Positions 263 through 63,829 of a DNA stretch of 64,000 nt are shown one piece after another. Below the pieces are notes generated by a model, which worked only from the letters and a program-made list of their open reading frames with translations, was not told the DNA's origin and made no database searches. The stretch comes from an uncultured Candidatus Saccharibacteria bacterium (lineage in GTDB: Bacteria > Patescibacteriota > Minisyncoccia > UBA6257 > UBA11618), in NCBI GenBank assembly GCA_964432405.1, contig CAYSNH010000001.1:122932-186931 (forward strand), read 5' to 3'. A program made the translations under genes and the position numbers. Positions within the stretch are counted from its first letter, which is position 1, and every line of letters starts with the position of its first letter.

Positions 263-309
263 TTTAAAAACCCCTGCTAAAGGGGCTTTTAAAAAAATAA
301 TATAAATTG

Positions 310-652
310 TGGAAGTGAGGGGAATTGAACCCCTGTCCGAAATATTTCTGCCAGATTTTCTACAAGCTTAGCCAAGTTAAATTTTGAGACCAATTAGCTC
401 ATTCTTGGCAAAAAACTAATTAGTCTTTGTCGGTTAATTTTTATTTCCTAGTCCCGACAACTAAGAAACTAAGCTCGCTGTTTAACACCGGTGATGACCT
501 AACGAGCATCAGCCGCCGATGCAGCATTTAAGCGTAAGCTAATGCTGGAGTTCGATTAACGTTGCCGTTTATCGGTTGTTTCAAATTTTAAAGAGTTTGA
601 ACTCTGCTTGCTTATCTAGTTTCAACCTTTCGTCGAAGCCTAGACCACTCCC
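310..652 (-). ncRNA. ssrA: tmRNA (SsrA)
   Basis: Minus-strand 5' end reads GGGAGUGGUCUAGGCUUCGACG… (conserved UUCGACG). The 3' end is a tRNA-like T-arm GGACAGGGGUUCAAUUCCCCU with acceptor strand CACUUCC-A giving a G3·U70 pair. An internal reading frame GGC AAC GUU AAU CGA ACU CCA GCA UUA GCU UAC GCU UAA encodes a tag-like peptide (…PALAYA*). It lies immediately downstream of smpB. Confidence 0.8.
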
Positions 653-46809: not shown

Positions 46810-46881
46810 TGGGCATGGGAAGGATCGAACTTCCGACCTCGTCTTTATCAGAGACGCGCTCTACCACTGAGCTACATGCCC
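46810..46881 (-). tRNA. tRNA-Ile (anticodon GAU)
   Basis: The minus strand reads GGGCATGTAGCTCAGTGGTAGAGCGCGTCTCTGATAAAGACGAGGTCGGAAGTTCGATCCTTCCCATGCCCA, a cloverleaf with anticodon loop CTGATAA. CCA is not encoded. Confidence 0.8.
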
Positions 46882-54338: not shown

Positions 54339-55433
54339 TTATTTTTTTAATTTAAGAAAAATTCTTTTCTCTTCAGGTTTTATTAATTCAATAGTGAAAT
54401 TATATTCTTCGTCGACTTTTAATTGATTTTTCATTTCTTCAACTCCTCCAAATTCAGAAACATGAATAAGTCCCTGAATATTTTGGTCTAAGCTAATAAA
54501 GGCGCCAAATGGATTAAAGCGGTTAACCTTACCACTCACATCCTGACCTACCTCATAAGTCTTTTCTACTTCATCCCAAGGATTTTCTTTTAGAGCCTTG
54601 AGAGAAAGAGATACACGACCATCTTTAATCTCAACAATCTTTGCCTTTACTAAATCATTAATCTTGATAATCTCTTTTGGATTTTCAATTAAGCGGTGAT
54701 CAAGCTCAGAAATATGTATCAATCCCTCAATATCTGGATCATTAGCAAACTTCATGAAAACTCCGAAGTCAGCTACACCGGTAATAATGCCATCGATGAC
54801 ATCCCCTTCTTTATAGCTTACTAACTTCGCTTTTATATTTTCTGTTGTAAGGGCTTTTTCAGAGATGATCAGCTTGTTAGCTCTAGAATTAACATCAATC
54901 ACCTTAACTTTTAAGGTCTCACCAACAAGCTTCTCTAGCTCTTCTTGAATTTTTGATCGATCACCATCATTAATCTGAGGATAGTTATCGACACTTAATT
55001 GAGAAACTGGCAAAAAGGCCTTTAAATTATTAATATCTCCTACCAATCCACCAGAGTTAGCCATATTCATTTTTATCTCAATAGTTTCTTCACTATCTTT
55101 AAGCTCTTTCATCTCCTCCCAGGCTTTTTGCTTGTGAGTTTCTTTAAGAGATAGCTCAGCATAGCCTTCATCGTTCTCTACTTCTATGACCTTGGCTAAA
55201 GTAGTACCTCCTTTAGAGAGCTCTTTGATAGTGTCTTGGGCGTTAATAAGCTCTAGACCATAGATGATTCCAGTGCCACGACGACCAAGGTCAAAAAAAG
55301 CGGCCTTATTAGTTTTGCCAATATAAGTTGCTTCTACCAACTCATTTTGTTTCAAAACAGCAATAGCTGCCGGGTCATTTTTTAAAATGTTAGCCAGTGG
55401 AGACCTGGCTTTTTTAGAAATATTAATTGACAT
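54339..55433 (-). CDS. rpsA: 30S ribosomal protein S1 (short, multi-S1-domain)
   Basis: Repeated S1 motifs (e.g. [20 protein letters not shown]). The start probably lies at the internal Met (MSINISKK…, ATG at 55433) rather than the ORF-track start at 55484. Confidence 0.8.
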
Positions 55434-55499
55434 AATAATCAGAAAATATATCAAAACTATAGTGGTTTTATTTAAAAAAAGCAAGCTTTATTTAATAAG

Positions 55500-55526
55500 A
55501 TAAAAGAAAAGACCCGTTTCCGGGTC
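55500..55526 (-). terminator. Rho-independent terminator (minus strand) ending the G+C-rich element upstream of rpsA
   Basis: On the minus strand, GACCCGGAAACGGGTC is followed by TTTTCTTTT. Confidence 0.55.
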
Positions 55527-55532
55527 CTTGAA

Positions 55533-55721
55533 TTAATAATCTTCAGTATGACCAATAGCGCTTGAGGGCATGCTAAGGGTTGGGATTATGGGCACAACCC
55601 AAGGTTTTGTGCCTTGATCAACGCACGCTCTTCGAGCCTCTTCTCTAGCTGTCCAACTGGCCCTAATTTTTAAGCATGCAGCGTGAATTTCTTCTGGTGT
55701 TGGTGATGGCCTCTCTGTCAT
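55533..55721 (-). CDS. Small G+C-rich ORF (62 aa) or structured RNA, unknown function
   Basis: ATG at 55721 with an upstream AAAGGA RBS (7-nt spacing); MTERPSPTPEEIHAACLKIRASWTAREEARRACVDQGTKPWVVPIIPTLSMPSSAIGHTEDY*. The region contains internal inverted repeats (GCATGCTAA/TTAAGCATGC, GGCACAA/TTGTGCC), so an ncRNA is an alternative. Confidence 0.3.
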   Translation of the reverse strand: MTERPSPTPEEIHAACLKIRASWTAREEARRACVDQGTKPWVVPIIPTLSMPSSAIGHTEDY

Positions 55722-55806
55722 TTGCGAATCCTTTCTTTTTAAAGTTCTATAATCTCTCAAAGAGACGTGTTCATATATAATAGAACAAAACAATGAAAAA
55801 AGCAAC

Positions 55807-56343
55807 TTGTTTTACATCAAAAAAAGTGCTAGAATGAAGCATAAATTAATTATGATTATTAACTCTCTTGGTGAAGGAGGGGTTAGAATTCAAACCTCTG
55901 GAACTACAATTATAATCGAACCCTATAAAGACAAGATTCCCGCTCGTGTTAAAGCGGATATCTTTATTAAAACCACTTCAAACGAAGATAAGGTGGTTGC
56001 TGATCACATTATTAAGGGTCCTGGCGAGTATGAAATCAAAGAGGTGGAGATTGTTGGCTTCCATCCTTTCATTTATCGTCTTAAAGCTGAAAATCTTTCT
56101 CTTGGATTTTTGGGCATGCATAGTTCTGAGGATTTAACCGATATCGATATTTTATTTGTCGATGGTGATAGTGAGAAAGCTAAGATTATTAGGCAAATAG
56201 AACCAAAGATGGTGGTAGTGGTTAGTGGCAAGGCTGAGGAGATTGGTAAAGAGTTAGGTCTGAAGGCTAATAAGCAGGAGAAGATTACTTTAAAAAAGAA
56301 AGATTTAGCTAATCAAGACATGCAGCTTGTTCAATTGAAATGA
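55807..56343 (+). CDS. Hypothetical protein
   Basis: 178 aa from a TTG start, or 169 aa from the ATG at 55834 (MKHKLIMIINSLGEGG…). No recognisable motif. Confidence 0.4.
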   Translation: MFYIKKSARMKHKLIMIINSLGEGGVRIQTSGTTIIIEPYKDKIPARVKADIFIKTTSNEDKVVADHIIKGPGEYEIKEVEIVGFHPFIYRLKAENLSLGFLGMHSSEDLTDIDILFVDGDSEKAKIIRQIEPKMVVVVSGKAEEIGKELGLKANKQEKITLKKKDLANQDMQLVQLK

Positions 56344-63745: not shown

Positions 63746-63829
63746 GGGCGAGTGGCGGAATTGGTAGACGCGATAGGTTTAGGACCTATTGAGCTTACGC
63801 TCGTGGGAGTTCGAGTCTCCCCTCGCCCA
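63746..63829 (+). tRNA. tRNA-Leu (anticodon UAG)
   Basis: GGGCGAGTGGCGGAATTGGTAGACGCGATAGGTTTAGGACCTATTGAGCTTACGCTCGTGGGAGTTCGAGTCTCCCCTCGCCCA; a long variable arm, anticodon loop TTTAGGA. A -35/-10-like TTGTCA…TATTAT lies upstream. Confidence 0.8.

What the first reader, a model, noticed from the sequence alone, without database searches (positions are those of the whole stretch)
55500..55740. G+C-rich element upstream of rpsA: a 62-aa ORF with RBS and terminator, or a structured small RNA
A roughly 200-nt patch of elevated G+C lies in the divergent spacer between rpsA and a hypothetical gene. On the minus strand it has an AAAGGA RBS, an ATG at 55721, a 62-aa ORF (MTERPSPTPEEIHAACLKIRASWTAREEARRAC…) and an intrinsic terminator (GACCCGGAAACGGGTC + U-tract). 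The same sequence also contains long-range inverted repeats (GCATGCTAA…TTAAGCATGC; GGCACAA…TTGTGCC), which are typical of structured RNAs hiding in AT-rich genomes.
Basis: seen in the sequence. Interest (0 to 1): 0.55.

Follow-up and report, generated by a model that had tools for sequence, protein, structure and literature searches.

The report
Small phage-type protein gene upstream of rpsA
The G+C-rich patch is a real, self-contained gene for a 62-residue protein from a large, unnamed family found mainly in phages and prophages of Planctomycetes; it was inserted next to rpsA in one small clade of Patescibacteria and is not a structured RNA.

Summary
On the minus strand there is a 62-codon ORF (55533-55721) with an AAAGGA RBS 7 nt before the ATG and an intrinsic terminator (55508-55529). 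The 'ORF' reading is supported; the 'structured small RNA' reading is not. The G+C excess sits at codon positions 1 and 2 (0.52/0.58). GC3 is 0.34, close to the host's, so amino-acid content explains the patch. Five distinct alleles at the same spot in related Patescibacteria all keep 62 codons, the RBS and the terminator, although the DNA has diverged close to saturation (dN/dS about 0.35-0.6). A profile built without these alleles scores the window protein at 66.7 bits. The family has at least 640 members with the motif PTPEEIxxxCxxI[RQ]xxW[ST]...WxxP and no Pfam, NCBIfam or PADLOC model, no significant PHROG match and no solved structure. It occurs on 65 IMG/VR viral contigs beside replication and recombination genes, alone or fused behind DNA-binding domains. 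More distant relatives have only a short spacer here, so the gene was gained. Function is inferred only: probably a protein-docking mini-domain acting on transcription or DNA-bound machinery.

The parts
55533..55721 (-). Coding sequence of the 62-aa protein (ATG 55721, stop TAA 55535-55533). Residues about 6-46 form the conserved mini-domain (PTPEEI..C..IR..W[ST]...R...PW..P); residues 47-62 are a variable tail.
   Evidence: Family membership. Codon-position GC. Conserved 62-codon alleles. AlphaFold2 model with pLDDT 83 and helices 9-21 and 25-31.
55729..55734 (-). Shine-Dalgarno-like AAAGGA, 7 nt upstream of the ATG.
   Evidence: Read. GAAAGGATTC is identical in the alleles of L006, L039 and L115.
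55753..55765 (-). Small 5'-UTR stem-loop (TCTCT-TTG-AGAGA) near the presumed transcript start.
   Evidence: Read. A hairpin at the same place is kept with a different sequence in L006 (GCTCTC-ACTTC-GAGAGC) and L039/L115. Its role (for example mRNA stability) is inferred.
55777..55805 (-). Promoter-like site for the small gene: TTGCTT (55800-55805), 17-nt spacer, TATTAT (55777-55782).
   Evidence: Called by eye; the consensus scan did not list it because the -35 matches only 3 of 6. This block is about 97% identical between the window and L006. Inferred, not shown.
55498..55529 (-). Intrinsic terminator of the small gene: stem AAGGACCCG-GAAA-CGGGTCTTT followed by a U-rich run.
   Evidence: Conserved in L006, L039 and L115 with one C-to-U change that keeps a G-U pair.
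55456..55484 (-). Promoter-like site for rpsA downstream of the terminator: TTGCTT (55479-55484), 17-nt spacer, TATAGT (55456-55461).
   Evidence: Called by eye. The roughly 95 nt from here to the rpsA start are 100% identical between the window and L006. It implies that rpsA has its own promoter and that the small gene is a separate transcription unit. Inferred.
54339..55433 (-). rpsA (ribosomal protein S1, 364 aa), the downstream neighbour. Context only, not part of the element.
   Evidence: (four S1 domains).
55834..56343 (+). Divergent MBL-fold (Lactamase_B_3-like) gene of 169 aa. Context: the other side of the spacer into which the small gene was inserted.
   Evidence: Synteny with relatives.

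Best explanation
The patch is a monocistronic gene for a 62-residue protein. It has its own promoter-like site, 5' hairpin, RBS and intrinsic terminator.

Shown:
- It was inserted into the short divergent spacer between an MBL-fold gene and rpsA in the recent ancestor of a small clade of Patescibacteria (Paceibacteria/Harrisonbacteria-like).
- The product belongs to a large, unnamed family of small proteins and domains with the motif [DS]P[TS]PEEIxxxCxxI[RQ]xxW[ST]xxExxxR, then 8-12 residues, then WxxP. The members that sources name come mostly from Planctomycetota, and the family is also common on viral contigs and in prophage-like regions.
- The apparent G+C richness is a by-product of an Ala/Arg/Pro/Glu-rich protein. 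Third codon positions already match the AT-rich host, so the gene is established and not freshly transferred.
- It evolves fast: only the motif positions are held, and dN/dS is about 0.35-0.6.

Inferred mechanism: the roughly 45-residue two-helix mini-domain is a protein-docking module. In phages it occurs alone, or C-terminal to helix-turn-helix domains, and in one case to an RNA-polymerase alpha-CTD-like DNA-binding domain, within early replication, recombination and regulation modules. The stand-alone 62-aa protein therefore most likely binds a conserved component of the transcription or DNA-transaction machinery (RNA polymerase/sigma is my first guess) and modulates it without binding DNA itself. 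Its position next to rpsA is probably incidental, because the same spacer carries other inserts in related genomes.
For: Gene anatomy
- ORF, RBS and terminator are present.

Coding signature
- GC1/GC2/GC3 of the ORF are 0.52/0.58/0.34, against rpsA GC3 of 0.29 and a genome G+C of 0.36.

Conservation
- L006 (rpsA 95% identical) carries a 62-aa ORF at the same place with only 41% aa identity (over the 46 residues that tblastn aligns) but with the motif, RBS and terminator kept.
- Further alleles are L039, L115 and L001, and all have 62 codons.
- dN/dS is 0.43-0.63 between close alleles and about 0.35 between the window and L006, against 0.04 for rpsA.
- Neutral substitution keeps the frame open in only 2-7% of simulations.

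Family
- phmmer finds 25 small proteins at E 2e-5 to 1e-3 in 1.84 billion sequences.
- A profile search finds 640 proteins.
- A profile built without the Patescibacteria alleles scores the window ORF at 66.7 bits, as high as Planctomycete members.
- Invariant positions are P7, P9, I12 and W23. Nearly invariant are T8, E10, E11, I19 and R31 and C16.
- The AlphaFold2 model has pLDDT 83 with helices 9-21 and 25-31.

Phage link
- The motif DNA pattern hits 65 IMG/VR contigs, and every one is confirmed by the profile.
- Neighbouring genes are SSB, Sak4/Erf annealing proteins, exonucleases, helicases, RusA, ParB and DNA methyltransferases.
- Planctomycete copies lie next to a capsid gene, between portal and Mu-F genes, or between a tape-measure gene and integrases.
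- One copy sits in a long array of small unannotated ORFs.

Fusions
- L085 has an alpha-CTD fusion (PF03118, E 2e-8, above the curated cut-off).
- L086 has a D5-like regulator HTH (phrog_323, E 4e-11).
- Several members give weak HTH hits.

Gain in this clade
- gyrA-hyp-MBL | rpsA-rpsO synteny is shared by L006-L018 (with the MBL gene inverted in L007) and L025.
- In L008, L011 and L018 the spacer is about 80-110 nt with no such ORF.
Against: - There is no expression or proteomic evidence; translation is inferred from sequence alone.
- dN/dS of 0.4-0.6 is only weak constraint. The one Fisher test I ran is borderline (p = 0.055).
- The functional inference rests on domain fusions and neighbourhood only.
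- Most HTH hits are below Pfam thresholds, and many viral ORF starts are uncertain in G+C-rich DNA.
- No structural or sequence relative of known function was found (87/89).
- In three Planctomycete loci the gene sits among structural genes, not early genes. That fits a mobile accessory gene as well as it fits a regulator.
- The window locus has no phage genes around it.
Confidence: 0.6

Rival explanations
1. A structured small RNA, or a cis-regulatory leader of the rpsA-rpsO operon (for example an S1- or S15-binding autoregulatory element), in which the ORF is accidental.
For: - The element lies directly upstream of rpsA on the same strand and ends in a terminator.
- Short inverted repeats exist.
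- RNAalifold on four sequences proposes some pairs with changes on both sides.
- The L006 transcript folds at z -2.35 when the 5' hairpin and terminator are included.
Against: - No Rfam family matches at gathering score or at E up to 10 beyond terminator-like noise.
- Window z-scores are -0.9 and -0.5.
- The consensus fold is only -16 kcal/mol over 287 columns, from effectively two lineages and with a poorly aligned 3' part.
- The GGCACAA/TTGTGCC hairpin is lost in the other alleles.
- What is conserved is the reading frame, its length, the RBS and the amino-acid motif, not the pairing.
- Codon-position GC shows a protein signature.
- A fully conserved promoter-like block lies between the terminator and rpsA.
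- The same protein occurs in hundreds of unrelated genomic contexts that lack rpsA.
Confidence: 0.04
2. A decaying remnant of a phage or mobile-element gene: once functional, now drifting and without a role in the host.
For: - dN/dS is fairly high at 0.43-0.63.
- The C-terminal tail cannot be aligned between clade alleles.
- It is a solitary gene with no phage neighbours.
- Other, unrelated inserts occupy the same spacer in L007, L009 and L010.
Against: - Five alleles spanning near-saturated synonymous divergence all keep exactly 62 codons, the ATG, the RBS and the terminator.
- Neutral simulations keep the frame open in only 2-7% of runs, even with indels ignored.
- The family-defining residues are retained in both diverged lineages.
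- GC3 has adapted to the host while GC1 and GC2 have not, which shows long residence under protein-level constraint.
Confidence: 0.1
3. A real protein of this family with a different role from transcription docking. Options include a phage-type anti-defence or host-takeover factor, a small partner of recombination or replication proteins (SSB, annealase, exonuclease), or a factor that acts on the ribosome or S1, given its position.
For: - In viral contigs the commonest neighbours are SSB, annealing proteins, exonucleases, helicases and DNA methyltransferases. Such regions often hold anti-defence and accessory genes (own knowledge).
- Fast evolution fits a conflict-related protein.
- The gene lies adjacent to rpsA in all Patescibacteria alleles.
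Against: - No PADLOC match and no similarity to any known anti-defence protein or other protein of known function.
- Recurrent fusion to DNA-binding domains points to a tethered effector or docking role, not an enzyme inhibitor.
- Adjacency to rpsA is not seen in any of the Planctomycete or viral contexts examined.
Confidence: 0.25
4. A leader-peptide type attenuator: translation of the short ORF controls the terminator and so controls read-through into rpsA.
For: The layout of ORF, terminator and downstream gene resembles attenuators. In the window the stop codon lies only 3 nt before the terminator stem.
Against: - In L006, L039 and L115 the stop lies about 30 nt before the terminator, so the coupling is not conserved.
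- No alternative antiterminator pairing was found.
- 62 aa is long for a leader peptide, and the peptide sequence itself is conserved across hundreds of unrelated loci.
- rpsA has its own conserved promoter-like site after the terminator.
Confidence: 0.03

Closest known systems
Unnamed 'hypothetical protein' clusters, for example HCX45272.1 (Patescibacteria group bacterium UBA11618) and the copies in Rubinisphaera brasiliensis, Aeoliella sp. and Planctomycetaceae MAGs
   Same: True homologues. They share the motif, the size (about 50-80 aa) and the predicted two-helix core. HCX45272.1 (P0029) is the positional orthologue upstream of rpsA.
   Different: None has a described function or a family name. 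The Planctomycete copies lie in prophage-like or other non-ribosomal contexts.
Small phage-encoded modulators of host RNA polymerase (T7 Gp2, T4 AsiA, Xp10 p7). Comparison from my own knowledge.
   Same: Size class (60-90 aa), phage origin, location among early genes, fast evolution, and a presumed action by docking on a host protein.
   Different: No sequence or structural similarity was detected. Binding to RNA polymerase is only a hypothesis here. The window copy is a chromosomal gene of a bacterium, not of a phage.
Two-part regulators with an N-terminal HTH and a small C-terminal helical docking domain, such as GcrA (N-terminal DNA-binding domain plus C-terminal sigma-70-interacting domain). 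Comparison from my own knowledge.
   Same: Fused family members have an N-terminal HTH-like segment, a linker and then the PTPEEI mini-domain. Some N-termini read like the GcrA pattern ('LW..G.S..eIA...G').
   Different: No Pfam GcrA hit was obtained. The C-terminal domain of GcrA has a different motif. The window protein lacks any DNA-binding part.
Ribosomal-protein mRNA leaders (rpsA and rpsO autoregulatory structures; Rfam S15 leader families)
   Same: Position immediately upstream of an rpsA-rpsO operon.
   Different: No Rfam hit, no conserved structure, a separate promoter-like site and terminator, and a conserved protein-coding frame.
Phage 'morons' and domesticated single phage genes (own knowledge)
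   Same: A single gene with its own promoter and terminator, related to phage genes, inserted between housekeeping genes and absent from more distant relatives.
   Different: It is not inside a prophage, and the host is an ultra-small Patescibacterium.

Membership tests
Unnamed PTPEEI small-protein family (defined here) | Sequence motif P-x-P-E-E-I-x3-C-x2-I-[RQ]-x2-W-[ST] followed by R and a distal W-x-x-P | tested here: met
   The window protein has P7-T-P9-E-E-I12, C16, I19-R20, W23-T24, R31, and W41 with P44.
Unnamed PTPEEI small-protein family (defined here) | Significant score against a family profile that does not contain the query or its close relatives | tested here: met
   66.7 bits against an HMM of 125 members built without the window allele, P0001, P0029 or P0058. 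The L006 allele scores 56.6 bits. Single-sequence phmmer gives E 2e-5 to 1e-3 in 1.84 billion proteins.
Unnamed PTPEEI small-protein family (defined here) | Small size with the domain near the N-terminus (stand-alone form) | tested here: met
   62 aa. The family median is 68 aa, and 118 of 146 database members have fewer than 40 residues before the motif.
Unnamed PTPEEI small-protein family (defined here) | Phage or prophage genomic context | tested here: not met
   The window copy lies between the housekeeping genes MBL-fold/gyrA and rpsA/rpsO/pnp, with no phage genes within 10 kb. Context is typical of the family but does not define it.
Known structured RNA families (Rfam 15) | Covariance-model score at or above the family's gathering threshold | tested here: not met
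   No hit in the window at 55440-55830. The best sub-threshold hits are a rimP leader at 22.8 bits (threshold 47, E 1.1), which covers the terminator, and a 22-nt TMV pseudoknot at E 0.64.
Structured non-coding RNA (generic) | Folding energy clearly below that of dinucleotide shuffles | tested here: not met
   z -0.90 on the minus strand and -0.52 on the plus strand. For contrast, another patch of the same window reaches z -7.3.
Structured non-coding RNA (generic) | Base pairs conserved or covarying among homologous loci | tested here: not met
   The local 7-bp hairpin keeps 1-3 of 7 pairs in L006, L039 and L115. The partner arm of the long-range repeat lies in a tail that cannot be aligned. 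The RNAalifold consensus is weak. With only about 3 independent lineages the test has low power.
Ribosomal-protein autoregulatory leader of rpsA/rpsO | Part of the 5' UTR of the regulated mRNA (co-transcribed, with no terminator and promoter in between) | tested here: not met
   An intrinsic terminator and then a promoter-like TTGCTT-17-TATAGT block, 100% conserved with L006, separate the element from rpsA. Transcript mapping was not possible.
Leader-peptide transcription attenuator | A short ORF whose translation is coupled to alternative terminator/antiterminator structures, conserved among relatives | tested here: not met
   The distance from stop to terminator is 3 nt in the window but about 30 nt in L006, L039 and L115. 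No antiterminator alternative is seen.
Known anti-phage defence components (PADLOC) | Match to a PADLOC-DB model | tested here: not met
   0 of 93 family members match at E up to 0.01.
RNA-polymerase-docking phage proteins (functional class) | Physical binding to an RNA polymerase subunit or sigma factor | not testable with these tools
   Only indirect hints: fusions to HTH and alpha-CTD-like domains.

The most novel reading that the evidence does not exclude
The PTPEEI mini-domain is a previously unrecognised docking module. Planctomycete phages would use it to attach DNA-binding heads (HTH, alpha-CTD-like) to the host transcription or DNA-transaction machinery. A Patescibacterium would have captured the bare module as a free-standing, fast-evolving regulator expressed from its own promoter beside the rpsA operon. 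If so, this would be a phage-to-CPR gene capture. It could also hint at contact between this Patescibacteria clade and Planctomycete hosts or their phages.
Probability: 0.15. Interest if true: 0.6.

Novelty: new member of a known kind. Interest (0 to 1): 0.3.

Why it matters
For annotating the window, this settles that the G+C-rich patch upstream of rpsA is a small protein gene and not an RNA gene. It also shows that in AT-rich genomes a 'G+C island' can simply reflect an Ala/Arg/Pro-rich peptide.

More broadly, it brings to light a sizeable family with no curated Pfam, NCBIfam or PADLOC model and no named PHROG match: at least 640 proteins and 65 viral contigs. The family has a sharp motif, a confident two-helix model and a modular use behind DNA-binding domains in phages. 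That makes it a reasonable candidate for a new domain entry and for a partner screen.

Its single-gene capture by a reduced Patescibacteria genome is a small but clean example of gene gain in a lineage better known for gene loss. None of this is very surprising to a specialist, and the function remains inferred.

Tried and rejected
- **Rfam:** scans of the region (E up to 10), of the whole window and of seven related loci found nothing relevant.
- **Folding:** single-sequence folding of both strands gave ordinary energies.
- **Consensus fold:** RNAalifold on four alleles gave a weak consensus, and my cut of L006 and L039 misaligned the terminators, so that part is uninformative.
- **Protein libraries on the ORF and the family:** Pfam, NCBIfam, PHROGs and PADLOC gave no real match. 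Only a 58-aa PHROG of unknown function (phrog_8789, E 0.0025) and sub-threshold DDE_5 hits appeared.
- **tblastn** of the peptide against GenBank phages and PLSDB plasmids returned chance hits only.
- **PDB sequence profile search:** one marginal hit, 9k32_A at E 0.014, lacks the core residues and is treated as chance.
- **Literature:** a search for the motif string found 0 papers.
I replaced it with a degenerate DNA pattern scan.
- **Metagenome scan** with the RBS/start pattern gave 66 stretches, of which only 2 were real alleles (L115, L169); the rest were chance matches.
- **Small terminase subunit:** I considered this for the HTH-fused viral forms, since a small gene abuts a 500-630-aa gene. 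I rejected it because the large neighbours are mostly helicases and exonucleases, and only one is a large terminase.
- **Two independent acquisitions** by the window and L006 alleles: rejected, because the 5' UTR, RBS, start region and terminator are homologous.

Full report
**Observation**

The window is an AT-rich genome piece (36% G+C) of a Patescibacterium. Its closest public genome pieces are 'Patescibacteria group bacterium UBA11618' and Harrisonbacteria/Paceibacteria MAGs.

On the minus strand the order is: small ORF, rpsA, rpsO, an NYN-domain gene, pnp. On the plus strand, diverging from them, are an MBL-fold gene, a hypothetical gene and gyrA.

- A 62-codon ORF runs from the ATG at 55721 to the stop at 55535-55533.
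- AAAGGA lies 7 nt upstream of the ATG.
- A terminator hairpin with a U-run sits at 55529-55508.
- The ORF has 47-48% G+C, in the top 2.6% of 190-nt windows.
- The two inverted repeats exist but have arms of only 7 nt.

One correction: the ORF is on the same strand as rpsA and upstream of it.

**RNA or protein?**

Every RNA test came out negative or weak.
- No Rfam family reaches its threshold. The sub-threshold hits merely cover the terminator.
- Minimum free energies are within one standard deviation of shuffled controls, with z -0.9 and -0.5. A different patch of the same window reaches z -7.3.
- The local hairpin GGCACAA/TTGTGCC keeps only 1-3 of its 7 pairs at the homologous codons of the other alleles.
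- The consensus fold of four alleles is weak, at -16 kcal/mol over 287 columns.

The protein tests are positive.
- *Composition.* The G+C excess lies in codon positions 1 and 2 (0.52 and 0.58). Position 3 is 0.34, close to the 0.29 of rpsA. So the 'G+C island' reflects an Ala/Arg/Pro/Glu-rich peptide written in host-like codons.
- *Orthologue in L006.* In L006, where rpsA is 95% identical in protein, the same place holds an ORF of exactly 62 codons. It has 41% aa identity (over the 46 residues that tblastn aligns), yet it keeps the RBS, the start region, the motif SP[ST]PEEI..C..IRA.W[ST]...PW..P.I and the terminator.
- *More alleles.* L001/L002, L039 and L115 also have 62 codons.
- *Selection.* dN/dS is 0.43-0.63 among the close alleles and about 0.35 between the window and L006. 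For rpsA it is 0.04. Constraint is therefore weak and concentrated on the motif.
- *Open frame.* Under substitution-only neutral drift of comparable depth, the frame stays open in only 2-7% of simulations.

**The family**

- A full HMMER scan of 1.84 billion representative proteins with the single 62-aa sequence found 25 small proteins at E 2e-5 to 1e-3. It also found one spurious repeat protein.
- Their alignment shows a sharp motif. A profile search then found 640 proteins.
- A profile built from 125 members without any Patescibacteria allele scores the window ORF at 66.7 bits. That is in the same range as bona fide members.
- Sources that give names call these proteins 'hypothetical'. The organisms named are Rubinisphaera, Aeoliella, Planctomycetaceae and, for the L006 orthologue, Patescibacteria.
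- No Pfam, NCBIfam or PADLOC model and no solved structure corresponds to the family, and PHROGs gives only weak hits to families of unknown function. The motif string occurs in no paper of the library.
- AlphaFold2 with 93 sequences gives a confident small model with pLDDT 83. It has helices at 9-21 and 25-31, followed by an extended segment that carries the distal W..P.
- The model has no structural neighbour. That is unsurprising for a two-helix unit.

**Where the family lives**

- In Planctomycete assemblies the gene lies after a tape-measure gene and before two integrases (L027), after a capsid gene (L029), between the portal and Mu-F genes (L038), or in chromosomal spots (L030, L033, L037).
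- A degenerate DNA pattern for the motif hits 65 IMG/VR contigs. I estimate fewer than 0.1 chance hits. The profile confirms a member on every one of them.
- The neighbours on these contigs are mostly replication, recombination and repair genes. They include SSB, Sak4/Erf annealases, exonucleases, helicases, RusA, ParB and DNA methyltransferases.
- One widespread copy sits in a long array of small unannotated ORFs.
- Roughly four-fifths of the database members are stand-alone. The others carry N-terminal extensions that read as helix-turn-helix domains.
- Support for those extensions is one solid PHROG hit (D5-like regulator, E 4e-11), several weak Pfam HTH hits, and one solid RNA-polymerase alpha-CTD hit (PF03118, E 2e-8).

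**History in Patescibacteria**

- The synteny gyrA-hyp-MBL | rpsA is shared by many Paceibacteria (L006-L018, with the MBL gene inverted in L007, and L025).
- In L008, L011 and L018 the divergent spacer is only about 80-110 nt, and no family ORF exists in L007-L026. The gene was therefore gained in the ancestor of the window/L006/L039/L115 clade.
- The 5' UTR, RBS, start and terminator are homologous among the alleles, so one insertion followed by fast divergence is the simplest history.
- The promoter-like blocks on both sides are 97-100% identical between the window and L006. Fourfold-degenerate sites of rpsA are only 68% identical. I cannot fully explain this sharp contrast.
- The same spacer carries other, unrelated inserts in L007, L009 and L010. 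The position next to rpsA therefore looks like a tolerated insertion site and not a functional link.

**Mechanism**

Shown:
- a self-contained small gene;
- membership of a phage-associated family;
- a confident two-helix mini-domain model;
- modular occurrence behind DNA-binding domains.

Inferred:
- the mini-domain is a docking module that brings a DNA-binding head to a conserved partner;
- as a free 62-aa protein it binds that partner and modulates it.

The alpha-CTD-like and HTH fusions and the early-gene context make RNA polymerase or sigma my first guess. Recombination and replication proteins are the second. I put about 0.9 on 'real protein gene of this family' and about 0.25-0.3 on the transcription-docking mechanism specifically. 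The combined statement gets 0.6.

**Comparison and novelty**

This is not a member of any described RNA family, ribosomal-protein leader, attenuator or defence system; each defining feature I could test failed (see the membership table).

It resembles phage 'morons' and small phage modulators of host machinery in layout and size only. The orthologue is already deposited as a hypothetical protein (HCX45272.1).

What is new is the recognition of the family, its motif, its phage association and its capture by a CPR bacterium. I rate it as a new member of a known kind (a small phage-derived accessory protein gene) with modest interest.

Noticed in passing
window 22440-22850: This is the most G+C-rich patch of the window (up to 0.56). 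It is intergenic, between a PilB-like ATPase gene and a YebC-like gene. The plus strand folds at -142.7 kcal/mol against -105.2 for shuffles (z -7.3; the minus strand gives z -4.2). It ends in a strong hairpin CCCUCCCUCCCG-UAUUA-CGGGAAGGAGGG followed by a U-run. No Rfam family matches. The same stretch holds a plus-strand ORF with an AAAGGA RBS and a lipoprotein-type signal peptide (MKRLLYLSLPLMALFISGC...). It is either a small lipoprotein gene with an unusually structured mRNA or an unknown ncRNA.
   Followed up: partly
L009:3780-3880, L010:3840-3890, L007:3130-4000, L008:3960-3985: In related Paceibacteria/Harrisonbacteria the same MBL|rpsA spacer carries other inserts. L009 and L010 have G+C-rich palindromic segments of about 60-100 nt between two tandem promoter-like sites; L010 has a perfect 10-bp hairpin GAGCTAATTC-TCG-GAATTAGCTC. 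L007 has a spacer of about 870 nt with G+C-rich stretches. L008 has a hairpin TCCCCGCG-TGCG-CGGGGA just before rpsA. No Rfam match. The spot looks like a recurrent insertion site.
   Followed up: partly
window 55436-55530 and 55775-55830, versus L006: The promoter-like blocks flanking the small gene are 97-100% identical between the window and L006, while fourfold sites of rpsA are 68% identical and the cassette between the blocks is about 50-65% identical. The cause is either very strong constraint on these non-coding blocks or unusually fast turnover of the cassette.
   Followed up: partly
L062:7528-7932, L063, L092, L101, L057 and similar viral loci: A group of viral family members carries an N-terminal 'PKKSNRxRRLGERVLV..GDGMWQAGKV...VWAP' segment that looks Tudor/SH3-like. 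They give sub-threshold Pfam DDE_5 hits (best E 4.6e-5, 23.5 bits against a cut-off of 27) to the C-terminal end of that transposase profile, across the PTPEEI motif. JGI calls one family member (P0129) 'transposase'. It is unresolved whether some transposase C-termini contain this mini-domain.
   Followed up: no
window 307-652 (-), 46810-46881 (-), 63746-63829 (+): The only Rfam matches at gathering score in the 64-kb window are a tmRNA (149.9 bits) and two tRNAs.
   Followed up: no
L001/L003 3900-5200 (equivalent to the window region beyond gyrA): Three tandem small genes with the T4SS_pilin domain (PF18895) and a solute-binding protein gene lie just beyond gyrA. A XerC/D-type integrase gene lies about 8 kb from the small ORF. 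None of them shows a link to the small gene.
   Followed up: no
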